Sequence record: PP358550
Strand: one strand, 5' to 3'
From: Escherichia phage FL04
Length of the DNA: 64,000 nt
In this document: piece after piece, positions 1,571 through 59,426 of the stretch
Layout: each line of letters begins with the position of its first letter
How positions within the stretch are numbered: position 1 is the stretch's first letter
The notes under the pieces: generated by a model
Databases searched by the model: none
What the model saw: the letters and a program-made list of their open reading frames with translations, nothing else
Told to the model about the DNA's origin: nothing
Position numbers and translations under genes: made by a program

Positions 1571-2599
1571 ATGATTTACTACGCAGATTATGAAATAGCG
1601 GAAAAAGCCATATACGGCGAACGAAATTTTAAACGGTTGCATACTAGCTCATTTACGCTGGTCTGTAGTTGTCCGATCTGCGGTGACTCAAAGAAAAATC
1701 ATACTCAAGCGCGATTCCGTATCTATACCTATAAGGATAGTTTGCGTTGCGGCTGTTTCAACTGTAACTACAATCAGCCGTTAGGTGAATTTCTCAAACA
1801 GTATAAGCCGGACCTATTCAGGGAATGGCTTATGGAACGACGGAAGGAACAAGGCGACCACAAGAACACCACGTTCAAGCCACTGAAAAAGGTAGAAAAG
1901 CCGGAGATTAAGAAAGTGCAAACATTGCCTTTCTGCGAGAGATTAGATACTCTTCCGGCTAATCATCCTATAATAAAGTATGTCAGTGATCGCTGTATTC
2001 CTCACGATAAATGGGATCTTCTGTATTTCACTAGAGAATGGCAAAAGGTAGCAAATCACATTAAGGCTGATACTTTCAAGAATCCACAACCTGAACCGCG
2101 TTTAGTGATTCCTATCTTTAACCGCGAGAACAAGATAGAATCCATTCAGGGGCGAGCATTGAGAAAGGATTACGGAAAGACCAAATATATGACGATTAAA
2201 ACTCATGAGTTAGCGAGTAAGGTCTATGGTCTTGAACGCGCCGATCCGAGTAAACCAGTGTATTTCTTAGAAGGTCCGATCGATTCATTGTTTATTGATA
2301 ACGGGTGTGCAATTACTGGCGGTACTTTGGGATTAGATGAAATCCCTTTCCCAGACCAGCGAGTGTTTGTACTTGATGCGGAACCACGGTCTGCCGATAC
2401 AATGCACCGACTGGAAAAGTTTATCAATGCAGGTGAAAAGATTGTATTGTGGGACCGTTGCCCGTGGCATTCTAAAGACGTTAACGCCATGATTCAGGAC
2501 GAGGGCGCTACACGCGACCAGATCATGGAATATATCAAAGAGAACACCGTACAAGGTCTGATGGCTAAAATGCGGTTTATGAAATATTGTAAATTTTAA
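1571..2599 (+). CDS. 61: DNA primase gp61
   Basis: 342 aa; N-terminal Zn-ribbon CPICGDSKK...CFNCNY, conserved PIIKYV, LEGPIDSLFI, KDVNAMI..GAT motifs matching T4 gp61 along its length. Confidence 0.93.
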   Translation: MIYYADYEIAEKAIYGERNFKRLHTSSFTLVCSCPICGDSKKNHTQARFRIYTYKDSLRCGCFNCNYNQPLGEFLKQYKPDLFREWLMERRKEQGDHKNTTFKPLKKVEKPEIKKVQTLPFCERLDTLPANHPIIKYVSDRCIPHDKWDLLYFTREWQKVANHIKADTFKNPQPEPRLVIPIFNRENKIESIQGRALRKDYGKTKYMTIKTHELASKVYGLERADPSKPVYFLEGPIDSLFIDNGCAITGGTLGLDEIPFPDQRVFVLDAEPRSADTMHRLEKFINAGEKIVLWDRCPWHSKDVNAMIQDEGATRDQIMEYIKENTVQGLMAKMRFMKYCKF

Positions 2600-2607
2600 T
2601 TAATGAG

Positions 2608-3132
2608 GTGAATATGTCAGAATTTAATTCTTGTGCTGGTCTGGTTAACGAAAAAGATATTAACGCGGCTATCGCCGCATATCATCACGCTATTGCAGAA
2701 GGTAAAGATCCGTTTCAGGTGATGCTAGAAATGCAAACTGGTTTGCAGGTTGCATTATCAGAAAAATTTGATTGGGTCCCAAATCCAACTAAGCTAGAGA
2801 CTTGCGGTGAAATGCTGGATTGGATGCAGCGGATGGATGACGCTATCGCAGACGAAACACGAGAGCTTTACACATCGCTGGGTGGAATGTCCAATGGTAA
2901 AGATGCAAGTGCAATCTGGAAAATGTGGAAAAAGAACCACGGGGAAGCGCGAGCGCGTAAATTCTCTGAACTGTCACCGGAAGATCAGCTTGAAGTGAAA
3001 TTTGAATTTGTGGATGCGATCCACTTCATTCTGTCAAAGATGATCCCGCTGGGTATTGACGCTCAAGAACTCTTTATTCTGTACTATCTGAAAAATGCTG
3101 AAAACTTCGCCCGTCAAGAACGCGGCTACTAA
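2608..3132 (+). CDS. hypothetical protein, possibly all-alpha NTP-pyrophosphatase-like (candidate dCTPase gp56 analogue)
   Basis: 174 aa; acidic ExxxE / ExxD patterns (ETCGEMLDWMQRMDDAIADETRE, EDQLEVKFEFVD); T4 gp56 is recalled as a similar length, but that match is from memory and unverified. Confidence 0.35.
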   Translation: MNMSEFNSCAGLVNEKDINAAIAAYHHAIAEGKDPFQVMLEMQTGLQVALSEKFDWVPNPTKLETCGEMLDWMQRMDDAIADETRELYTSLGGMSNGKDASAIWKMWKKNHGEARARKFSELSPEDQLEVKFEFVDAIHFILSKMIPLGIDAQELFILYYLKNAENFARQERGY

Positions 3133-3139
3133 AAATTAG

Positions 3140-3168
3140 TTGACACTACTCTATAATGGTTTTATTAT
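3140..3168 (+). promoter_or_regulatory. sigma70-type early promoter (TTGACA-17-TATTAT)
   Basis: -35 TTGACA 3140-3145, -10 TATTAT 3163-3168; immediately followed by hairpin plus T-run. Confidence 0.5.
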
Positions 3169-3198
3169 GCCTCCCGTCGAAAGATTGGAGGCTTTTTT
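3169..3198 (+). terminator. hairpin plus T-run (terminator/attenuator) whose 3-prime arm contains the GGAGG Shine-Dalgarno of the next gene
   Basis: GCCTCC...GGAGGC stem followed by TTTTTTATT, 4 nt before ATG 3202. Confidence 0.55.
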
Positions 3199-3201
3199 AT
3201 T

Positions 3202-3705
3202 ATGCAATTTACACCAGAAGAACTTAACATCATTGATGAATTGATGAACTCTAAAGAAAATATCGATATGTCGATCCTTAATGGATTGATCGAAAAGACT
3301 GAACGGTTAGTGCATCATGAAGCCTTGTATCGCGGTGTGAGCAAAAGAGAAGGCCGTAAGCTGGATACCTTAATTGTAGGTGATTCTTTCGTTGTAGATC
3401 GTCCTATGAGCTTTACGCCACTGCAATCAACAGCAGAGGACTTTGCAACCGATGTTTATGCAACAGGAAAGATTATTGCAATAAAACCTACCAAGCCTTG
3501 CATGAATTATTACGAACATGCTATTGACCGAGTGGTGTCTAAAGAGTATGACAATCCGACTACTCGACTGTCTTTGTATGCTATGTTGGCAGATGAGCGC
3601 GAGTGCATATACAAGACAGGGACGACCATGATCCTTGATGAGATCGAGGAAGTTTACGCGTGTAATGGCGATCTGATAGAGATTTACAAATTTTCTTTAA
3701 TTTAA
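3202..3705 (+). CDS. putative ADP-ribosyltransferase (ModA/ModB-like)
   Basis: 167 aa; R (LYRGVS), S-x-T (MSFTPLQST) and E-x-E (ADERECI) motifs in the order expected for R-S-E type ARTs. Confidence 0.4.
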   Translation: MQFTPEELNIIDELMNSKENIDMSILNGLIEKTERLVHHEALYRGVSKREGRKLDTLIVGDSFVVDRPMSFTPLQSTAEDFATDVYATGKIIAIKPTKPCMNYYEHAIDRVVSKEYDNPTTRLSLYAMLADERECIYKTGTTMILDEIEEVYACNGDLIEIYKFSLI

Positions 3706-3708
3706 GTG

Positions 3709-3738
3709 TTGACAGCACAAACCAGATAGACAATAATA
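3709..3738 (+). promoter_or_regulatory. sigma70-type early promoter
   Basis: TTGACA 3709-3714, 17-nt spacer, AATAAT-like -10 at 3732-3738. Confidence 0.55.
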
Positions 3739-37908: not shown

Positions 37909-37936
37909 TTGACATGCTTATGTGGTAATGTATAAT
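37909..37936 (+). promoter_or_regulatory. early promoter cassette (TTGACA-16-TATAAT, type TGTATAATGCACA)
   Basis: Followed by conserved CATCGAAACAA-GGAGGA initiation region; same cassette repeated at 39170 and 39553. Confidence 0.6.
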
Positions 37937-37966
37937 GCACACATCGAAACAATGGAGGATAAAAAT

Positions 37967-39181
37967 ATGTTAGTACGTCAAGCGCATGAAATTGAATGGA
38001 CTAAGGAGAAACATAATTGTAGAGCGAAAAGCCCAACAGATTTTTATGGTAAAATTTTAGAAATATGTAAAACAGAAAATTTAGTTTTTGTCGGCTTTGT
38101 TGGGGAATGGGAAGGAAACAAAACAAAAATAAAACTTATCTGCGAACATGGTCATGAATGGATATGTTCGATAGATAAATTTGTAAGTAAAGGAACAAGA
38201 TGTTCTCATAAACAATGTAAAGGTAAACGAATATCTAAAAAATTGTCTATATCCGAAACGGAATACAAAACGAGAATTTTAGAAATATGTGAAACTGAAA
38301 ATCTAATTTTCTTAGGTTTTGTTGGTGAATGGAAAGGGTGTGATACTAAAATTCGCATAAAATGCAAATACGGTCATGAATGGGATGTATCTATATATAG
38401 CTTCACAAAAATGAATACCAGATGCCCTACATGCGCAGGAAAGAACAAGACAAAAGACGAATACAAAACGAGAATTTTAGAAATATGTGAAACTGAAAAT
38501 CTAATTTTCTTAGGTTTTGTTGGTGAATGGAAAGGATGCCGCACAAAAATAAAACTTAGCTGCAAACACGGTCATGAATGGATATCTTCCATATTACATT
38601 TTGTGTATCAAAATACTCGCTGTCCTGTATGTGTTGGTAGATTGTCTATCGACGATAGAATGATACAGATTAATCAAGTTTGCAATTCTTTAGGTTATGT
38701 AATAATTAAGATCCACGAAGAATGGAAAAACACAGAAACTAAAATTGATGTTAAATGTTTATGTGATTATATATGGACAACAACAATACATAGAGTCATA
38801 CATGGGACTACAGGTTGCAGAAAGTGTGCTACATATGGATACAATACAAAAAAATCGGGGACTCTTTATATACAGAAATTAACCAACGATGATTCCTTTG
38901 TTGGTGTGAAATTTGGAATAACAAACAGAGACACGAATGAACGAATGAAAAACCAATCATCAAAGTCTAAATTCGACCATGAGATCTTTTATGAATTGAC
39001 TTTACAAGACGGTCAAAAGATCTTAGAATTAGAGAACAAGATCAAGGAAGCGATGAAAGGTAAAACTTCCTATATCTCAAAAGAAGATATGCCGGATGGC
39101 TGGACCGAAACAGTAGCGCCGTCTGAATTGAGCACTATCATGTATATCGTAAAAACTTTTGAAAAAGAGTTGACAGCGTAA
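37967..39181 (+). CDS. T5orf172 (GIY-YIG-like) domain protein with four N-terminal zinc-ribbon repeats; putative nuclease/homing endonuclease-like
   Basis: 404 aa; four ~70-aa repeats each with C..HGHEW ... RC..C; C-terminal GTLYIQKL...VGVKFGITNRDTNERMK pattern. Confidence 0.65.
   Translation: MLVRQAHEIEWTKEKHNCRAKSPTDFYGKILEICKTENLVFVGFVGEWEGNKTKIKLICEHGHEWICSIDKFVSKGTRCSHKQCKGKRISKKLSISETEYKTRILEICETENLIFLGFVGEWKGCDTKIRIKCKYGHEWDVSIYSFTKMNTRCPTCAGKNKTKDEYKTRILEICETENLIFLGFVGEWKGCRTKIKLSCKHGHEWISSILHFVYQNTRCPVCVGRLSIDDRMIQINQVCNSLGYVIIKIHEEWKNTETKIDVKCLCDYIWTTTIHRVIHGTTGCRKCATYGYNTKKSGTLYIQKLTNDDSFVGVKFGITNRDTNERMKNQSSKSKFDHEIFYELTLQDGQKILELENKIKEAMKGKTSYISKEDMPDGWTETVAPSELSTIMYIVKTFEKELTA
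38261..38547 (+). repeat. intragenic tandem direct repeat (two near-identical ~78-bp copies 210 bp apart, 38261-38337 and 38471-38547)
   Basis: GAATACAAAACGAGAATTTTAGAAATATGTGAAACTGAAAATCTAATTTTCTTAGGTTTTGTTGGTGAATGGAAAGG present twice; more diverged copy upstream. Confidence 0.8.
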
Positions 39182-39956: not shown

Positions 39957-40526
39957 ATGATTCAATGTGTATTTGCTATTGGTGACACTAAAATGTCAGA
40001 TGAAAATTGGGCTTTTGGTTTTAAAGGCGGTTTACCGTGGGGGCGTCCAATTAAAAAGGACATGGAAAACTTTAAAATGCGCACTATGGGAGATGTTGAT
40101 CTTGCGGCGGTTGTAATGGGACGTAATACCTTTGAAAGTCTGCCTAAAGCACTGGAAGGTCGTCTTAATGTGGTTATTAGTACCGATGCCAGCAAGCCGA
40201 CACCGAAAGCCAAAAACGGCGACCAGCCTAATGTGTATACTGGAATTGAATTAAAGGATCTGTTAAAAGTCCTGGAGAAAACGCAAGGTTTGGTAAGTGT
40301 TATCGGTGGACCTTCCCTGATTGAAAAAGCGGTTGACTTTGCGGATCGTATTGTGTTAACATATGTTCAACGAGCAGGAATTAATGATCCGTTCGAATAT
40401 GATGTTGGTATCTCTAAGGAAATGATTCAGGAATTATATTTTGACTTTGCAACAAAAGAAGAACATAATTACTTCCTTGATGATTACCTGATCAGCGAAC
40501 AAATTTTAGAACGTAAGAAGGCGTAA
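39957..40526 (+). CDS. frd: dihydrofolate reductase
   Basis: 189 aa; FGFKGGLPWGRPIKKDMENFK, VVMGRNTFESLP, VIGGPSLIEKA matching DHFR motifs; T4 synteny (frd-td). Confidence 0.88.
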   Translation: MIQCVFAIGDTKMSDENWAFGFKGGLPWGRPIKKDMENFKMRTMGDVDLAAVVMGRNTFESLPKALEGRLNVVISTDASKPTPKAKNGDQPNVYTGIELKDLLKVLEKTQGLVSVIGGPSLIEKAVDFADRIVLTYVQRAGINDPFEYDVGISKEMIQELYFDFATKEEHNYFLDDYLISEQILERKKA

Positions 40527-40620: not shown

Positions 40621-40889
40621 TGAAAGTCGGTATTATTCAATTATGGACGGCTACCAGTGAAAACTACGCAGTAGCCGTAGATTATTACGGTTTACAATAT
40701 CTCTATGATGAAGCGAGCGCATCATGGCTTCCTGTGCAAGAAAATAGCGATATCTCAAGACCTGCTACTATATTCGACCGTGGCGTTGTCTTTATCGATA
40801 TTGACGAGACAGTAGCAAAACTGCGTAAGAAAGCAATCAATAAGAAAAAGGTGATGTGGGATGAAAGAATATTTGAAACTATTGCGTGA
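40620..40889 (+). CDS. hypothetical protein (89 aa)
   Basis: ATG 40620 overlapping upstream stop; 3-prime end overlaps td start by 29 nt. Confidence 0.45.
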   Translation: MKVGIIQLWTATSENYAVAVDYYGLQYLYDEASASWLPVQENSDISRPATIFDRGVVFIDIDETVAKLRKKAINKKKVMWDERIFETIA

Positions 40890-42093
40890 TGTTCTTGATA
40901 ATGGATGGCCTCGTGAAGACCGAACTGGGGTAGGTACGCTATCTAAATTCGGCGCAGAGATGCGAATTGATTTAAGCAAGGGTTTCCCATTACTGACCAC
41001 TAAAAAGATGGCTACAGCCTCTGTAATTGGCGAATTGCTATGGTTTATGGAGGGATCACTTGACCGCCGTCGCTTACAGGAAATTACACGCGGTAAGTTT
41101 GACGAAGAAGCCTTCGACATTTGGCGCGGCAACTGTCTTGATATGAAAGAAAAGAATCCTTTGCGATTCAATGGTTATAATGTCGGCAATATGTATGGTA
41201 TGGCATGGCGACGCAAACCGATTCATCCACACGGTGAAATCAAAATTAAGCGCGTTAAGAGCAAATATGCACATACATTTAAGCACCCGTGGGTAGAAGA
41301 CTTTACGCCAACCAATGAAACAGAAGACCGTTTATGTGCTATCTGGCGTGGTATGCGTTATGAAGAGTTTGATTCTGAATATAATCAATTCTTAGTAGCA
41401 GACCACTGGAAGACTCAATCTAATTTTGTTAATGATGCATATTGCTTGTGGGGATTCCAGGAATGGGTAGATGATGGTTATTTCGGTTATCTGCTTGATA
41501 GTGATTATCTGGGCGGGGATATTTTAGCGCCAGATACCACGATCTTTGCTAGTATGGACGTAGACACATCGAGCACTAAAGACGATGAAGAATATGTCTA
41601 TCGACCGAAGATTTGGGAAGACCAGTTACAAAACGTGATTGAACAAATTAAAAACAATCCAACGGATCGACGTATCATCATTGACTCATGGAACGTACAA
41701 GGAACACATAATGCTGTATTAGGTGTATGTCATCCTTTCGTGCAATTCTACGTCAATGAAGGTAAACTGTCTTGTATGTGGTTTCAGCGAAGCGTAGACA
41801 GCTTTTTAGGCTTGCCCTTTAACGTCGCCAGCTATGCGCTGTTAACTCACATCATAGCGAAAATGTGTGATCTTGAGGTAGGAGAACTGATTTTCTCTGG
41901 TGGAGATACTCACATTTACAAAAACCATTTTGATCAAGTTATGGAACAGTTAAGCCGTGTTCCGTTTGATAAACCAACGATTGAGTTGCCGGAATTTGAA
42001 TCTTTAGATGAGGTATTGACAAAGACTCCGAAAGACTTTAAAATTCACAACTATCAAAGCCATCCAGCAATCACCGCTCAAATGGCAGTATAA
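40861..42093 (+). CDS. td: thymidylate synthase with large internal in-frame insertion
   Basis: 410 aa; TS motifs DRTG.GT, LLWF, YG.AWR, DRRIII.SWN, active-site CHPFVQFYV, RSVDSFLGLPFN.ASYALLTHIIA, GGDTHIY; residues about 119-254 have no counterpart in canonical TS. Confidence 0.88.
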   Translation: MKEYLKLLRDVLDNGWPREDRTGVGTLSKFGAEMRIDLSKGFPLLTTKKMATASVIGELLWFMEGSLDRRRLQEITRGKFDEEAFDIWRGNCLDMKEKNPLRFNGYNVGNMYGMAWRRKPIHPHGEIKIKRVKSKYAHTFKHPWVEDFTPTNETEDRLCAIWRGMRYEEFDSEYNQFLVADHWKTQSNFVNDAYCLWGFQEWVDDGYFGYLLDSDYLGGDILAPDTTIFASMDVDTSSTKDDEEYVYRPKIWEDQLQNVIEQIKNNPTDRRIIIDSWNVQGTHNAVLGVCHPFVQFYVNEGKLSCMWFQRSVDSFLGLPFNVASYALLTHIIAKMCDLEVGELIFSGGDTHIYKNHFDQVMEQLSRVPFDKPTIELPEFESLDEVLTKTPKDFKIHNYQSHPAITAQMAV

Positions 42094-47975: not shown

Positions 47976-48437
47976 ATGATTAATGAGCTAATAGAAAACT
48001 ATGGATTCGTTAAATATTCATGTTTAGAGTGTAAAGATGGTGATGTGATTCTGCCGCCTCAGAAGAACCGTTTAAATGTTCTTTACGCTATTGTTGTTGA
48101 TGATGAACTGGTATACATTGGTCAGACTGTCAATCTCAGAAAGCGGATCAATTATTACCGGACTAGCATTAACAGACAAACACCAACAGCGGATACTCGC
48201 AAGAGTAAGAATATTCATAAGGCGCTAGAGGAAGGTAAGACAGTAACATTCTATTACCGACAGTGCTTTGAGTTGTACATCGAGAATCCAACGGGTAAGG
48301 ATATTATAAGCACTGCCGATATCGAAGAACCTGTTTTGATCACCAAATTTAAACCAGAATGGAACACAAATTATGTCAACAAAAGAAAACAACAAAAAAG
48401 TTTTAGCATTGTTCAAAAATCTGATGACACTATGTGA
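47976..48437 (+). CDS. GIY-YIG-like endonuclease domain protein
   Basis: 153 aa; NVLYAIVVDDELVYIGQTVNLRKRINYY resembles GIY-(N10)-YIG...R motif; 3-prime end overlaps rnlA. Confidence 0.55.
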   Translation: MINELIENYGFVKYSCLECKDGDVILPPQKNRLNVLYAIVVDDELVYIGQTVNLRKRINYYRTSINRQTPTADTRKSKNIHKALEEGKTVTFYYRQCFELYIENPTGKDIISTADIEEPVLITKFKPEWNTNYVNKRKQQKSFSIVQKSDDTM

Positions 48438-51461: not shown

Positions 51462-51968
51462 ATGTTGTCACAAACTTACATGCAGATCGCCTATCTAATC
51501 GCAAAGAACTCTAAATGCGTTTCGTGGAAGGTAGGCGCACTGATCGAAAAAGACGGGCGAATCATTTCTACTGGATTTAACGGAACTCCAGCAGGGCAAG
51601 TAAATTGTAGCTGTCATGCACATAAAAACGGTTGGCTGGATGATGACGGCAAAATGATCCCAGAAAAACGACCAGAGCATAGTGCATGGTCACAGAAAAA
51701 CGAGATCCATGCTGAATTAAATGCTATTTTGTTTGCTGCCCGTAGCGGTGTATCGATTGAAGGCGCTAGTATGTGGTGTACTGCTTCACCGTGTCCAGAT
51801 TGCGCTAAAGCAATTGCAAACAGTGGTATTAAACATCTATACTATTGCGACACATATGATCGAAATGGTGGGCGTGATTGGGCTGATATTCTGAATAATG
51901 CAGATATTACAATCACGCGTATTCCAAAAGCATTATTGACTGATTTGAAGGGTATTGATAATGACTGA
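51462..51968 (+). CDS. cd: deoxycytidylate (dCMP) deaminase
   Basis: 168 aa; zinc-binding HAELNAI and SPCPDCAK motifs. Confidence 0.88.
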   Translation: MLSQTYMQIAYLIAKNSKCVSWKVGALIEKDGRIISTGFNGTPAGQVNCSCHAHKNGWLDDDGKMIPEKRPEHSAWSQKNEIHAELNAILFAARSGVSIEGASMWCTASPCPDCAKAIANSGIKHLYYCDTYDRNGGRDWADILNNADITITRIPKALLTDLKGIDND

Positions 51969-57445: not shown

Positions 57446-57687
57446 AAAGAAAATTAATTAAACGCAATAAGGAATTTCTTAATAACTGCATTAAGGCCGC
57501 TAATGGTTGGCCTTTGTGCCTCTTCCTTTATGATTGGTATTCTAAACAATCGGCTGAGGAAGCACGACACTATAAGAAGATCAGAAAAGAATCATATACA
57601 AAACAAGGCCGCATTAATGGACTTTACTTAATGTGGCACGGCAAAGAACCTTCTAAAATCTGTGTTGGATTAAAGGGGCGTATATGA
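57442..57687 (+). CDS. hypothetical protein (81 aa, GTG start)
   Basis: GTG overlapping upstream stop; stop overlaps next ATG. Confidence 0.5.
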   Translation: MKRKLIKRNKEFLNNCIKAANGWPLCLFLYDWYSKQSAEEARHYKKIRKESYTKQGRINGLYLMWHGKEPSKICVGLKGRI

Positions 57688-58400
57688 AACAAAAATTAAT
57701 ATTCTGTAACTTTGACGGATCGGGGATAATGGGGCTAGAATGGGCTAAAGCAGGTCATAAGGTAGTCTGCTTTAATGCGGATGACGCCGACCACGGTACA
57801 TACAAAAAGTATAATACCAGATTTGAACACCCAAACATTACCTATGTAAACACATGGATTGATTTGAACTGGCTAGAAAGAGCAATGGACCTTGAATGGG
57901 GGAAACCGGATATTATCTTTGCATTCCCACCGTGCACCAATTTAGCTGTTAGTGGCGCTGCACACTTTGAACGAAAGAAACGAGAACAAGGACCATTGAT
58001 TCAAGTTCATGATGTAAGGGCAGCTAAAATAACCGCTTATTTGGGTGAATGGCTAGGAGTTCCCTACATGATAGAGAATCCTGTAAGCGTTATCTCTAGC
58101 ATGTGGCGTAAGCCTGATTACATGTTCCACCCGTGGGAATATGGCGGTTATTTGCCGGAAGATGATAAACATCCTACTTTTCCTGAGTATATCGCCGCCC
58201 GTGATATGTACCCGAAAAAGACTTGCTTATGGACCGGACAAGGCTTTATAATGCCAGAAAAGAAACCGTTGCAGATTAATAAAGGGTACAGTAAACAGCA
58301 TTCTAAGCTAGGCGGGAAAGGAACGAAAACAAAGACTATCAGGTCACTTACCCCGCGAGGATTCGCAAAGGCAGTATTTGAAGCAAATAAGGATCTATGA
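57684..58400 (+). CDS. C5-cytosine methyltransferase-like protein (minimal catalytic core, no obvious target-recognition domain)
   Basis: 238 aa; motif I-like FCNFDGSGIMGLEWAKAGHKVVCFNADD, motif IV-like IIFAFPPCTNLAVSGAA (Pro-Cys), motif VI-like YMIENPVS; no recognisable motif VIII/TRD. Confidence 0.6.
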   Translation: MKQKLIFCNFDGSGIMGLEWAKAGHKVVCFNADDADHGTYKKYNTRFEHPNITYVNTWIDLNWLERAMDLEWGKPDIIFAFPPCTNLAVSGAAHFERKKREQGPLIQVHDVRAAKITAYLGEWLGVPYMIENPVSVISSMWRKPDYMFHPWEYGGYLPEDDKHPTFPEYIAARDMYPKKTCLWTGQGFIMPEKKPLQINKGYSKQHSKLGGKGTKTKTIRSLTPRGFAKAVFEANKDL

Positions 58401-58735
58401 TGAGATTGTTTAAGTATTCGCTAACGTCAAATTACGATAAACAAGGTCATTGCATCCGTTGCCCTGATTGTCATAGCCATAACATCGAAAGCAAGATCAC
58501 CGATCATATTGATGGACTTTGGTCGCCAGCAAGTGAAATAGAATACTATTGCGCTGATTGTGGAATTGTAGTAGCATATTGGGCATACGGATCATATGAT
58601 CCATACTTCCAGATGGGAGAACGTTCAATCCCTGCGCTTATCTGGAGAATTAAGAACAATATCCGCTATTCATGGGATGAGTTCTTAAAAGATATTGATT
58701 TACGTGATGATCCATTCAGGAGAACTATATTATGA
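58397..58735 (+). CDS. zinc-ribbon protein (112 aa)
   Basis: CIRCPDCHSH ... CADCG; start overlaps upstream stop (ATGA). Confidence 0.55.
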   Translation: MMRLFKYSLTSNYDKQGHCIRCPDCHSHNIESKITDHIDGLWSPASEIEYYCADCGIVVAYWAYGSYDPYFQMGERSIPALIWRIKNNIRYSWDEFLKDIDLRDDPFRRTIL

Positions 58736-58910
58736 TAACACCACAACTACACGGTAAAGAGATTTGCGATCTTACTTGGGAAGAGTTGGTCATGTATCGC
58801 GACACCTACAAATGGTTTGAATCCATGAAAGAATTTGTAGCAGCAGTACGAGAAGAAATGAGCATTCGCCAGTATGCGGACGCATATATTGAAAAGGTAA
58901 GCACACTATG
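58731..58910 (+). CDS. hypothetical small protein (59 aa)
   Basis: Overlapping start/stop with neighbours; not in track. Confidence 0.4.
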
Positions 58911-59426
58911 AACCGTTTAACGCCTAAACGCCGTTACTATACCAATACTAAAAACTTTGTCATCTCTGTTTATGAGGCGTGGTTAGAAGATGGCTTTATC
59001 AACATGAACCCAGATTATCAGCGTCCTTTGGTATGGGACACCGAAAACAAACGTATGTTTATCGAAAACCTGATTAATGATTTTCCGGTTGGTGCTATCG
59101 CAATGGCTAAGATTGATGATGGCTCTCGCTATGAGATCGAAATCGTGGACGGTAAACAGCGTTTAAACGCAATATTCTCCTTCATGAAGGATGAGTTTAG
59201 CATTGCTGGTAATGATGATTCTATGTTGTATTACAGTGATTTTACGCCAGCAGAAAAGCGACGTTTCCGAAATCTCGGACTACCCGCGATCATGATGGAA
59301 GAGAGCACACGAGAAGACCGATTAGAGTATTTCTACAAAACAAACTTTTTCGGTGTGCCTCAATCGGAAGAACATCGCCAGCATGTGATTGCCCTATTGC
59401 AAGATGAGCAATTAAAAAATAACTAA
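58908..59426 (+). CDS. stand-alone DUF262 / ParB-like (GmrS N-terminal type) domain protein
   Basis: 172 aa; DYQRPLVW and VDGKQRLNAIF (DGQQR-like) motifs; start overlaps upstream stop. Confidence 0.6.
   Translation: MNRLTPKRRYYTNTKNFVISVYEAWLEDGFINMNPDYQRPLVWDTENKRMFIENLINDFPVGAIAMAKIDDGSRYEIEIVDGKQRLNAIFSFMKDEFSIAGNDDSMLYYSDFTPAEKRRFRNLGLPAIMMEESTREDRLEYFYKTNFFGVPQSEEHRQHVIALLQDEQLKNN

What the first reader, a model, noticed from the sequence alone, without database searches (positions are those of the whole stretch)
2608..3132. Possible dCTPase (gp56-like) directly after the primase gene: bears on the cytosine modification status
The 174-aa product has acidic ExxE/ExxD patterns reminiscent of all-alpha NTP pyrophosphatases and a length close to what I recall for T4 gp56, and the window also encodes dCMP deaminase. 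If it is a dCTPase the phage probably replaces cytosine (for example with hydroxymethylcytosine), which would make the C5-methyltransferase-like protein at 57684 unlikely to act as a conventional Dcm. The assignment is tentative.
Basis: inference. Interest (0 to 1): 0.35.

Follow-up and report, generated by a model that had tools for sequence, protein, structure and literature searches.

The report
RB49-type gene 56 nucleotide pyrophosphatase
This is the already-annotated gene 56 (dCTPase/dUTPase homolog) of an RB49-like coliphage; the gene call is right, but this phage group lacks the machinery to replace cytosine and has been shown to carry ordinary cytosine, so the enzyme most likely clears dUTP and feeds thymidylate synthesis and does not exclude cytosine from the DNA.

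Summary
The ORF is real. Its start should move from GTG 2608 to ATG 2614, giving 2614..3132 and 172 aa. The protein is 100% identical to RB49 gp56 and 49% identical over its full length to T4 gp56. It meets Pfam dUTPase_2, models confidently as an all-alpha NTP-pyrophosphatase-like protein, and keeps every family-invariant residue. So "gp56-like" is confirmed and already in the databases.

The inference that cytosine is replaced fails. The window and the whole RB49 genome have no gene 42, alpha/beta-glucosyltransferase, alc, denB or arn. The annotated td is a true thymidylate synthase. Published work shows RB49 DNA is cut by cytosine-modification-sensitive enzymes, and LC-MS of Krischvirus TB34 found canonical cytosine. 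About half of gp56-bearing phage records lack a gp42 homolog.

Most likely role: the phage's only dUTPase, supplying dUMP to Td, possibly with weakened dCTP/dCDP hydrolysis feeding Cd then Td.

One new lead: the motif H-F-x-x-N141 is invariant in all gp42-positive phages but is Ser/Ile/Cys in the canonical-cytosine RB49 and RB43 groups. This may mark lost or reduced dCTPase activity.

One 2026 report of a modified Krischvirus (SAP) remains unexplained; its 41.7 kb around gene 56 is essentially identical to unmodified TB34.

The parts
2614..3132 (+). Gene 56 coding sequence (172 aa): ortholog of T4 gp56, an all-alpha d(C/U)TP/d(C/U)DP pyrophosphatase homolog
   Evidence: 100% aa identity to RB49 gp56 with 6 synonymous and 0 non-synonymous differences. 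49% identity to T4 gp56, E 7e-51. PHROG 173 at 5e-37. Pfam PF08761 at 24.8 bits against a cut-off of 22.9. AlphaFold model pLDDT 94.4, all helical.
2605..2611 (+).
   Evidence: Read directly from the sequence. The RB49 annotation starts at the equivalent ATG.
2851..2865 (+). Codons for D80-E81-T-R-E84, the first acidic (metal-binding type) cluster
   Evidence: D80, E81 and E84 are invariant in alignments of 30 and 38 sequences. The role is inferred from the ExxE...ExxD signature of all-alpha NTP pyrophosphatases.
2992..3036 (+). Codons for E127-x3-E131-x2-D134 (second acidic cluster), the H137-F138 couple and position 141 (Ser here; Asn in cytosine-replacing phages)
   Evidence: E127, E131, D134 and F138 are invariant and H137 nearly so. 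The His-Phe couple sandwiches the deoxyribose in dimeric dUTPases (PMC5608427).
3091..3114 (+). Codons for K160-x2-E163-N164-x2-R167, the C-terminal helix motif
   Evidence: Invariant K160, E163, N164 and R167. The spacing is the same as Lys154/Asn158/Arg161 of the phiDI dimeric dUTPase, which bind the phosphates and deoxyribose (PMC5608427). The match is by pattern, not by superposition.
1571..2599 (+). Gene 61 DNA primase, immediately upstream; gene 56 appears to be the distal gene of this unit
   Evidence: PHROG 47 at 1.8e-90. RB49 annotation. No strong promoter-like site between the two genes.
3140..3168 (+). Promoter-like site TTGACA-17-TATTAT (11 of 12) just after the gene 56 stop and ahead of modB (3202..3705)
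   Evidence: Consensus scan only; function not shown.
51462..51968 (+). cd, dCMP deaminase: converts dCMP to dUMP and would use dCMP released by gp56
   Evidence: 56% identity to T4 Cd, E 6e-60. Pfam PF00383. PHROG 174 at 2e-66.
40861..42093 (+). td, a true thymidylate synthase (410 aa, with an insertion of about 140 aa), not a dCMP hydroxymethylase
   Evidence: TIGR03284 at 283 bits (cut-off 108), against 30.6 bits for T4 gp42 on the same model. Pfam PF00303 at 283.8 bits. Only 23% identical to gp42. Carries PFN(V)ASY with Asn.
39957..40526 (+). frd, dihydrofolate reductase, part of the same thymidylate pathway
   Evidence: 35% identity to T4 Frd, E 6e-24. RB49 annotation.
47976..48437 (+). 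denA, endonuclease II homolog: the only T4 'anti-cytosine-DNA' gene retained besides gene 56
   Evidence: 49% identity to T4 DenA, E 4e-42.

Best explanation
The ORF is gene 56 of an RB49-like (Krischvirus) phage. It is a vertically inherited member of the T4 gp56 family of all-alpha, dimeric-dUTPase-type nucleotide pyrophosphatases. By homology it binds a 2'-deoxypyrimidine nucleoside tri- or diphosphate. Two acidic clusters (D80/E81/E84 and E127/E131/D134) would hold Mg2+. The H137-F138 couple and N164 would hold the deoxyribose. K160 and R167 would hold the phosphates. The enzyme would then release the monophosphate.

This phage keeps ordinary cytosine in its DNA. Its role is therefore most likely twofold: to destroy dUTP/dUDP so that uracil stays out of phage DNA, and to supply dUMP to thymidylate synthase (Td, with Frd). 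Any residual dCTP/dCDP hydrolysis would feed dCMP to dCMP deaminase and on to dTMP, which suits a 40% G+C genome made in a 51% G+C host. It is not part of a cytosine-exclusion system.

Shown: homology, fold class, intact catalytic residues, purifying selection, absence of the T-even replacement genes, and absence of any other phage dUTPase. Inferred: the substrate preference, and that dCTPase activity is weaker than in T4. The latter is suggested by replacement of the otherwise invariant Asn141 by Ser.
For: Homology and identity:
- 49% identity to T4 gp56 over its full length.
- Identical to RB49 gp56.
- 1423 phage records carry a homolog.

Fold:
- pLDDT 94.4, seven helices.
- Best specific PDB matches are DCTPP1 and the MazG-like dUTPase DR2231.
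- BFVD matches are T4 and Acinetobacter gp56 at TM 0.90-0.95, then NTP-PPase_dUTPase, phage dUTPases and MazG.
- Pfam PF08761 is above its cut-off here and matches 22 of 38 family members.

Conservation and selection:
- All 23 conserved residues are present.
- dN/dS is 0.23 against the divergent Krischvirus allele.

No replacement pathway:
- No gp42, glucosyltransferases, alc, denB or arn in the window or the RB49 genome.
- td is a true thymidylate synthase.

Only dUTPase:
- E. coli Dut finds nothing in RB49 or the window.
- Petrov et al. note that the only T4-like phages lacking gene 56 carry a host-like dUTPase instead (PMC2993671).
- gp56 is much more widespread than gp42: 1423 against 965 records, 191 of the latter being Microbacterium phages.

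Canonical cytosine: PMC4041780 and PMC13390438 for TB34.

Why the dCTPase is probably attenuated:
- T4's dCTPase is efficient enough to stop cytosine-DNA synthesis altogether (PMC6071114), which would be self-defeating here.
- N141 of H-F-x-x-N is Asn in 24 of 24 gp42+ sequences, 6 of 6 with a divergent TS-like gene and 3 of 3 Gaprivervirus-type sequences. It is S, I or C in the RB49-type, SAP-type and RB43-like gp42-negative groups.
Against: - No enzyme assay exists for any RB49-type gp56, so substrate preference is inferred.
- The base-contacting residues of gp56 have never been mapped. N141 is placed near the substrate only by helical periodicity (D134, H137/F138 and N141 on one face); no coordinates were available to me.
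- The N141 association rests on few independent lineages: about 4 non-Asn against about 9 Asn lineages at 70% identity. Deep nodes of the tree are weak.
- Morganella phage MP1 and the Gaprivervirus-type loci have Asn141 without a TS-family gene in the syntenic slot.
- Foldseek E-values against the PDB are not significant (best 0.58), and sequence searches of the PDB found no dimeric dUTPase convincingly.
- The host's own Dut is present, so the need for a phage dUTPase is not proven.
- Only 64 kb of this phage's genome is visible.
Confidence: 0.7

Rival explanations
1. One reading: gp56 is a T4-style dCTPase that clears dCTP so that a modified cytosine (such as hydroxymethylcytosine) replaces cytosine in phage DNA.
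For: Full-length homology to T4 gp56. dCMP deaminase and DenA are also present. One paper reports a Krischvirus (SAP) with 5-hmdC and alpha-gentiobiosyl-mdC in its DNA and sensitivity to the type IV enzyme BrxU (PMC13390438).
Against: - No gp42, glucosyltransferase, alc, denB or arn in the window or the complete RB49 genome; td is a real thymidylate synthase.
- RB49 DNA is cut by HpaII and NheI, and TB34 DNA is canonical by HPLC/MS.
- RB49 performs generalized transduction of host DNA (PMC8056088).
- SAP and unmodified TB34 differ by one substitution (in the clamp-loader gene) plus nine homopolymer indels across 41.7 kb that include gene 56 and the gene 42 slot.
- SAP's modification profile equals that of co-isolated Tequatrovirus phages. 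I take that to suggest a sample mix-up; this is my inference.
- The window protein lacks the Asn141 found in all gp42+ phages.
Confidence: 0.03
2. gp56 keeps full dual dCTPase/dUTPase strength and is used deliberately to drain dCTP/dCDP into dTTP (through Cd and Td). This would shift pools towards an AT-rich genome and starve host, plasmid or competing-phage replication, while phage ribonucleotide reductase flux keeps enough dCTP for its own synthesis.
For: - All catalytic and sugar/phosphate-binding residues are intact.
- cd, td, frd and nrdA/nrdB are all present in RB49; cd, td and frd were confirmed in the window.
- The genome is about 40% G+C.
- Some dimeric dUTPases with no link to hmC still show dCTPase activity (S. 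aureus phage Duts; PMC5608427).
Against: - In T4 the same activity abolishes cytosine-DNA synthesis when hm-dCTP is missing (PMC6071114).
- It would create an ATP-wasting cycle with dCMP re-phosphorylation.
- The invariant Asn141 and Asn55 of cytosine-replacing phages are replaced here, which suggests altered substrate handling.
Confidence: 0.2
3. gp56 mainly does something other than bulk dUTP/dCTP hydrolysis. Options are house-cleaning of aberrant dCTP derivatives (5-methyl-, 5-hydroxy- or 5-halo-dCTP, as DCTPP1 does) or a non-catalytic regulatory or structural role in the dNTP-synthesis/replication complex.
For: The best PDB fold matches are mouse and human DCTPP1 (prob 0.95 and 0.80). Dimeric and trimeric phage dUTPases moonlight as signalling proteins in staphylococcal phages (PMC5608427).
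Against: The DCTPP1 matches have non-significant E-values and 12-16% identity. Catalytic residues are under strict conservation and the gene is under purifying selection. The mutually exclusive distribution with host-like dUTPase points to dUTPase as the conserved function.
Confidence: 0.05

Closest known systems
Bacteriophage T4 gp56 dCTPase-dUTPase (gene 56; PHROG 173)
   Same: Full-length ortholog (49% identity, 172 against 171 aa). Same genomic neighbourhood (61 ... 56 ... modB-srd-dda). All family-invariant residues shared, and the same predicted fold (BFVD TM 0.90).
   Different: T4 works with gp42, gp1, glucosyltransferases, Alc and DenB to replace cytosine; none of those partners except DenA is present here. 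T4 has dam between 61 and 56 and segF after 56. T4 has Asn at positions 141 and Cys at 55, where this protein has Ser and Val. Activity of the RB49-type protein is untested.
RB49 gp56 (NP_891586.1) and other Krischvirus gene 56 products
   Same: Identical protein. The DNA differs by 6 synonymous changes. Annotated since the RB49 genome record as gp56 dCTPase.
   Different: Nothing of substance. A second Krischvirus allele (KFS-EC/TB34/SAP type) is only 69% identical, has Ile at 141, and has an HNH homing endonuclease inserted between primase and gene 56.
Dimeric all-alpha dUTPases (Pfam PF08761: Campylobacter jejuni, trypanosomatid and S. aureus phage phiDI enzymes)
   Same: Pfam match above the gathering score. 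All-helical fold, ExxE/ExxD metal-binding clusters, His-Phe couple, and a C-terminal K-x3-N-x2-R helix.
   Different: Very low sequence similarity (1w2y only at E 1.4 in a profile search). The gp56 family is shorter than the cellular enzymes. T4's member also hydrolyses dCTP/dCDP efficiently.
DCTPP1 / MazG-type all-alpha NTP pyrophosphatases
   Same: Shared four-helix core (best PDB fold matches, TM 0.56-0.61 normalised to target length) and acidic metal-binding motifs.
   Different: 12-17% identity, different oligomeric organisation and length, non-significant Foldseek E-values. Same superfamily, not the same family.
Trimeric beta-fold dUTPase (E. coli Dut and host-like Dut of phages KVP40, nt-1, Aeh1, 65)
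   Same: Proposed same physiological job (dUTP sanitation and dUMP supply). Replaces gene 56 in the few T4-like phages that lack it.
   Different: Unrelated fold. No homolog in RB49 or the window. Does not hydrolyse diphosphates or dCTP.

Membership tests
T4 gp56 family (gene 56 orthologs, PHROG 173) | Full-length sequence homology to T4 gp56 | tested here: met
   tblastn of T4 gp56 against the window: 49% identity over residues 1-171, E 7e-51. PHROG 173 at 5.2e-37.
T4 gp56 family (gene 56 orthologs, PHROG 173) | Conserved position among early replication and host-takeover genes (61, modB, srd, dda) | tested here: met
   Window order is 61-56-modB-srd-dda. Same in RB49 and, with dam/segF/soc inserted, in T4.
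T4 gp56 family (gene 56 orthologs, PHROG 173) | Retention of the family-invariant residues | tested here: met
   All 23 invariant or near-invariant positions are present. The exception of interest is position 141, which is invariant Asn only among phages with cytosine-replacement genes.
T4 gp56 family (gene 56 orthologs, PHROG 173) | dCTP/dCDP and dUTP/dUDP hydrolysing activity | not testable with these tools
   Needs an enzyme assay. No biochemical data on RB49-type gp56 were found in the searched literature.
Dimeric all-alpha dUTPase family (Pfam PF08761 dUTPase_2) | Score above the Pfam gathering threshold | tested here: met
   24.8 bits against a cut-off of 22.9 (marginal). T4 gp56 scores 25.4 bits. 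22 of 38 family members match at E <= 0.001.
Dimeric all-alpha dUTPase family (Pfam PF08761 dUTPase_2) | All-alpha fold with the NTP-pyrophosphatase helical core | tested here: met
   AlphaFold pLDDT 94.4, seven helices and no strands. The specific PDB matches are all from the all-alpha NTP-PPase superfamily, though with E >= 0.58. BFVD matches include NTP-PPase_dUTPase, phage dUTPases and MazG.
Dimeric all-alpha dUTPase family (Pfam PF08761 dUTPase_2) | Catalytic motifs: acidic metal ligands, His-Phe sugar sandwich, C-terminal Lys/Asn/Arg helix | tested here: inconclusive
   The patterns are present and invariant: E81/E84, E131/D134, H137-F138, K160/N164/R167. They match the description in PMC5608427. 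Equivalence was judged by pattern and spacing, not by structural superposition on a ligand complex.
Dimeric all-alpha dUTPase family (Pfam PF08761 dUTPase_2) | Homodimeric assembly | not tested
   Only a monomer was modelled.
T-even cytosine-replacement system (gp56 + gp42 + glucosyltransferases + Alc + DenB) | dCMP hydroxymethylase (gene 42) or another TS-family dCMP-modifying enzyme | tested here: not met
   The only TS-family hit in the window or the RB49 genome is td (23% identity to gp42), and td is a ThyA equivalog (283 bits against 30.6 for gp42). In RB49, uvsX and gene 43 are separated only by a 62-aa ORF.
T-even cytosine-replacement system (gp56 + gp42 + glucosyltransferases + Alc + DenB) | DNA glycosyltransferases (alpha-gt, beta-gt) | tested here: not met
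   No tblastn hit better than E 0.5 in the RB49 genome or the window.
T-even cytosine-replacement system (gp56 + gp42 + glucosyltransferases + Alc + DenB) | Functions hostile to cytosine DNA (Alc, DenB) | tested here: not met
   No hit better than E 0.1. pseT.3 is followed directly by rnlA, and rIIB by small ORFs, in RB49. Only DenA is present.
T-even cytosine-replacement system (gp56 + gp42 + glucosyltransferases + Alc + DenB) | Virion DNA lacking unmodified cytosine | not testable with these tools
   The literature says the opposite for relatives: RB49 is cut by HpaII/NheI (PMC4041780) and TB34 is canonical by HPLC/MS (PMC13390438). One contrary, unexplained report exists for SAP.

The most novel reading that the evidence does not exclude
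Krischvirus phages may have a cryptic route to hydroxymethyl- or glycosyl-cytosine DNA that needs neither gene 42 nor any known glycosyltransferase. This is what was reported for phage SAP against its near-identical sibling TB34. My evidence does not exclude this. It only shows that the known genes are absent and that SAP and TB34 do not differ meaningfully in the 41.7 kb around gene 56.
Probability: 0.03. Interest if true: 0.85.

Novelty: already known. Interest (0 to 1): 0.15.

Why it matters
As a gene call it adds nothing. The protein is identical to RB49 gp56, annotated for two decades. The oddity of a "dCTPase" in a cytosine-containing phage has already been noted in reviews (PMC2993671, PMC8056088).

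The practical lesson is that gene 56 alone must not be used to predict modified cytosine, because about half of the phage genomes that carry it lack a gene 42 homolog. That matters when choosing restriction enzymes, CRISPR tools, sequencing chemistry or therapeutic phages. Krischvirus phages transduce host DNA.

The one forward-looking point is the H-F-x-x-N141 motif. If Asn141 proves to be the residue that lets T-even gp56 accept cytosine, it would give a sequence marker that separates cytosine-excluding from cytosine-tolerant T4-like phages. It would also explain how a phage lineage can keep this enzyme after giving up, or before acquiring, base replacement.

Tried and rejected
1. Sequence searches of the PDB with the single protein and with a 30-sequence profile. 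The single protein found nothing. The profile gave PDE5 hits at E 0.02, which I treat as spurious helical matches, and C. jejuni dUTPase 1w2y only at E 1.4.
2. NCBIfam has no model for this family.
3. Foldseek against the PDB gave no hit below E 0.58. I use it only as superfamily-level support.
4. I considered that the long 'td' might be a disguised dCMP hydroxymethylase. Rejected by equivalog scores.
5. I considered residue 64 (Cys here, Ala in T4) as a marker of gene 42 status. Rejected because three gp42+ Aeromonas-type sequences also have Cys.
6. I looked for a genetic difference between modified SAP and unmodified TB34 around gene 56. There is none beyond one clamp-loader substitution and TB34 homopolymer errors.
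7. The locus of P0013 was not syntenic and carried no Pfam annotation, so it was uninformative.
It was rerun without that row.
9. I could not map residues 55 and 141 onto a ligand-bound structure, because neither model coordinates nor residue-level structural alignments are returned.
Full report
**Observation**

The ORF listing finds the ORF at 2608..3132 (+, 174 aa, GTG start) exactly as described. Three things place the real start at ATG 2614:
- A Shine-Dalgarno sequence GAGGTGA lies at 2605-2611, and the GTG at 2608 is part of it.
- RB49 annotates 519 nt.
- Almost all homologs are 171-175 aa.

The gene is therefore 2614..3132, encoding 172 aa. It begins 14 nt after the stop of the primase gene (1571..2599). 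It is followed by a ModB-like ADP-ribosyltransferase, srd and dda.

**What the window is**

The DNA around the gene is 98-99% identical to Krischvirus coliphages (kvi, FL37, RB49 and others). The encoded protein is 100% identical to RB49 gp56, with 6 synonymous and 0 non-synonymous differences. The original RB49 GenBank record already calls it 'gp56 dCTPase'. It is 49% identical to T4 gp56 over the whole length (E 7e-51), and 1423 phage records carry a homolog.

**Family and fold**

- Pfam dUTPase_2 (PF08761, the dimeric all-alpha dUTPase family) is matched just above its gathering score: 24.8 against 22.9 bits. T4 gp56 itself scores 25.4, and 22 of 38 family members match.
- PHROG 173 (nucleoside triphosphate pyrophosphohydrolase) matches at 5e-37.
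- An AlphaFold model built on a 38-sequence alignment is confident (pLDDT 94.4, pTM 0.83) and entirely helical.
- Against the PDB no Foldseek hit is formally significant. All the specific top hits are nonetheless all-alpha NTP pyrophosphatases: mouse and human DCTPP1 (probability 0.95 and 0.80, TM 0.56-0.61 by target length) and the MazG-like dUTPase DR2231.
- Against viral models the order is gp56 proteins (T4, TM 0.90; Acinetobacter, TM 0.95), then 'NTP-PPase_dUTPase', putative phage dUTPases and MazG.
- Sequence-only searches of the PDB were uninformative.

The invariant residues fit the published anatomy of dimeric dUTPases. That anatomy comprises acidic metal ligands, a His-Phe couple that sandwiches the deoxyribose, and a C-terminal helix with Lys/Asn/Arg. 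Here those are H137-F138 and K160/N164/R167, the latter with the same spacing as Lys154/Asn158/Arg161 of the phiDI enzyme (PMC5608427; alignments).

**Does the phage replace cytosine?**

I fetched the whole RB49 genome and the relevant parts of T4. I then ran T4 proteins against both RB49 and the window.
- Present: gp56, Cd, DenA and Frd in both, and Dam in RB49.
- Absent: beta-gt, alpha-gt, Alc, DenB, Arn, Ndd and Imm.
- gp42 finds only a 23%-identical stretch inside td.

That td (40861..42093) scores 283 bits on the thymidylate-synthase equivalog TIGR03284 (cut-off 108). Genuine T4 gp42 scores 30.6 on the same model. Td is therefore a thymidylate synthase, not a hidden hydroxymethylase.

In RB49 the T4 position of beta-gt/42/imm, between uvsX and gene 43, holds one 62-aa ORF. 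The alpha-gt position holds a-gt.4 and a-gt.5 but no a-gt.

The literature agrees:
- RB49 lacks the hydroxymethylase and beta-gt, and its DNA is cut by HpaII and NheI (PMC4041780).
- Gene 42, alc and denB are absent from RB49 and RB43, while gene 56 is in nearly all T4 relatives (PMC2993671).
- Krischvirus is scored dCTPase+, hmC-, denB-, denA+, ndd-, alc- (PMC12115623).
- A review explicitly notes that RB43/RB49-type phages keep DenA and dCTPase-dUTPase homologs without base-replacement enzymes, and that they transduce host DNA (PMC8056088).
- Krischvirus TB34 DNA is canonical by HPLC/MS (PMC13390438).

Across the phage database, gp42-type genes occur in 965 records (191 of them unrelated Microbacterium phages), against 1423 records for gp56. 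Gene 56 is therefore a poor predictor of cytosine replacement.

**What it most likely does here**

There is no trimeric Dut homolog in RB49 or the window, so gp56 is the phage's only dUTPase candidate. Petrov et al. observed that the few T4-like phages lacking gene 56 carry a host-like dUTPase instead.

The gene is under purifying selection inside this canonical-cytosine genus, with dN/dS 0.23 against the 69%-identical KFS-EC/TB34/SAP allele. All conserved residues are intact.

Cd, Td and Frd are encoded in the window. The simplest pathway is therefore dUTP/dUDP to dUMP (gp56) to dTMP (Td), with any dCMP going through Cd.

In T4 the dCTPase is strong enough that hydroxymethylase mutants make no DNA at all (PMC6071114). 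An equally strong activity would be self-defeating in a phage that needs dCTP. I therefore infer that the RB49-type enzyme is attenuated for dCTP or balanced by supply. This inference is not shown.

**A possible specificity marker**

I fetched 80 gp56 loci with 10-kb flanks. I scored each for gp42, with UvsX and gp43 as controls that the syntenic interval was covered. Among 72 unique gp56 sequences, several alignment columns separate the classes perfectly.

Position 141 is the most striking. It lies one helical turn after H137-F138, on the same face as the metal ligand D134. The residue found there is:
- Asn in 24 of 24 gp42+ sequences.
- Asn in 6 of 6 sequences whose locus has a divergent TS-like gene in the gene 42 slot.
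- Asn in 3 of 3 Gaprivervirus-type sequences. These lack gene 42 but, per the literature, keep alc and denB.
- Asn in 25 of 29 unscored sequences.
- Ser in RB49 and the window.
- Ile in SAP/TB34/KFS-EC.
- Cys in the RB43-like group.
- Ala in one uncharacterised pair.

Position 55 behaves similarly (Asn or Cys against Val). In 121 homologs the counts at 141 are N 92, C 17, S 6, I 2, A 2, G 1 and V 1.

A tree built without these columns does not unite the non-Asn lineages, though its deep nodes are weak. An additional Cys141 locus has gp43 directly followed by UvsX with no TS gene. A Ser141 lineage also shows none upstream of UvsX.

The reverse does not hold. Morganella phage MP1 has Asn141 but only a 'thymidylate kinase' and two small ORFs in the slot.

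The sequence-level association is strong (Fisher p 1.3e-7). It rests, however, on roughly four against nine lineages. I offer it as a hypothesis: Asn141 is needed for efficient dCTP handling, and the constraint is lost where cytosine is kept.

**The SAP report**

A 2026 paper reports that Krischvirus SAP has fully modified cytosines and is BrxU-sensitive. The profile is about one third 5-hmdC and two thirds alpha-gentiobiosyl-mdC. TB34, 99.96% identical, is unmodified. No pathway genes were found.

I compared 41.7 kb around gene 56 in the two records, from nrdH to gene 37. They differ by one substitution inside the clamp-loader gene plus nine single-base homopolymer deletions in TB34. Those deletions split gp43, UvsX, gp47 and gp39 in its annotation and look like assembly errors. 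Gene 56 and the empty gene 42 slot are identical.

SAP's profile is the same as that of seven Tequatrovirus phages in the same collection. I therefore suspect a sample mix-up. That is my inference, and the question is formally open. SAP and TB34 also carry the other gene 56 allele, so they bear only indirectly on this window.

**Comparison with known systems, and verdict**

The gene is a member of the T4 gp56 family, within the dimeric all-alpha dUTPase family and the all-alpha NTP-pyrophosphatase superfamily. It is not part of a T-even-type cytosine-replacement system, because three defining components were tested and not found.

The finding is already known as a gene, and its biological implication as stated is not supported. 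Interest is low. The Asn141 pattern and the unexplained SAP report are the only elements worth following up.

Noticed in passing
L007 (SAP, OZ034687.1 75890-117565) versus L008 (TB34, OX001802.1 75797-117472): The published 'modified' SAP and 'unmodified' TB34 differ in this 41.7 kb by one substitution (L007 position 9431, clamp-loader gene) and nine one-base homopolymer deletions in TB34. The deletions split gp43, UvsX, gp47, gp45 and gp39 in its annotation. Nothing here can explain a difference in DNA modification, and SAP's profile equals that of co-isolated Tequatrovirus phages.
   Followed up: partly
L007 20318-20881; L091 10443-11372; L003 15606-16280; window 2300-3400: Gene 56 is a hotspot for homing endonucleases. 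An HNH gene lies between primase and gene 56 in SAP/TB34/KFS-EC, a NUMOD3 ORF overlaps the 3' end in another Krischvirus-type contig, and segF follows gene 56 in T4. Gene 56 is also far more divergent between Krischvirus species (69% aa) than the adjacent primase. JSE and G37-3 match the window at 98-99% only up to the end of the primase gene.
   Followed up: no
window 40861-42093: The thymidylate synthase is 410 aa because of an insertion of about 140 residues (roughly residues 110-253) between two halves that both match ThyA models. Nothing suggests an intron or intein, and the insert's nature is unknown.
   Followed up: partly
window 57684-58400, 58397-58735 and 58908-59426: The C5-methyltransferase-like ORF matches PHROG 757 'DNA methyltransferase' (8e-91) but no Pfam, NCBIfam or PDB sequence. 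FDGSG, PPC and ENP motifs are visible. It is followed by a zinc-ribbon ORF and then a stand-alone GmrSD_N (DUF262) domain protein (72.9 bits), the N-terminal domain of type IV enzymes that attack glucosyl-hmC DNA. This might be a cluster for competition with T-even phages. RB49 DNA is HpaII-sensitive and TB34 shows no modified nucleosides, so bulk 5-methylcytosine is unlikely.
   Followed up: partly
window 37922-39181: A 419-aa ORF with four CapR-homology repeats and a treble-clef zinc finger lies in a low-G+C segment (34% against about 40%) between gene 32 and frd. RB49 annotates the equivalent ORF as 'endonuclease'. It is probably a mobile or recently acquired gene.
   Followed up: no
L019, L027, L029, L030, L056, L061, L062 (about 0.7-2.6 kb into each locus): Seven T4-like contigs carry, in the gene 42 slot upstream of uvsX, a thymidylate-synthase-family gene only 24-28% identical to T4 gp42. 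It may be a different dCMP-modifying enzyme, such as the 5-hydroxy-dCMP synthase type. All seven have Asn141 in gp56.
   Followed up: no
L093 (Morganella phage MP1, NC_031020.1 20500-21667): MP1 has a 'thymidylate kinase' and two small ORFs, but no TS-family gene, between UvsX and DNA polymerase. Its gp56 nevertheless keeps Asn141. Its DNA modification status would be a useful test of the Asn141 hypothesis.
   Followed up: no
window 3140-3168 and 3709-3737: Two near-consensus sigma-70-type promoter-like sites (TTGACA-17-TATTAT and TTGACA-17-AATAAT, 11 of 12 each) lie immediately upstream of modB and srd. This fits early promoters in front of host-takeover genes.
   Followed up: no
T6 NC_054907.1 against T4 OZ209057.1: The window's gp56 is more similar to T6-type gp56 (56%) than to T4 gp56 (49%), although T4 and T6 are in one genus. 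T4's gene 56 is an unusually divergent allele within Tequatrovirus.
   Followed up: no
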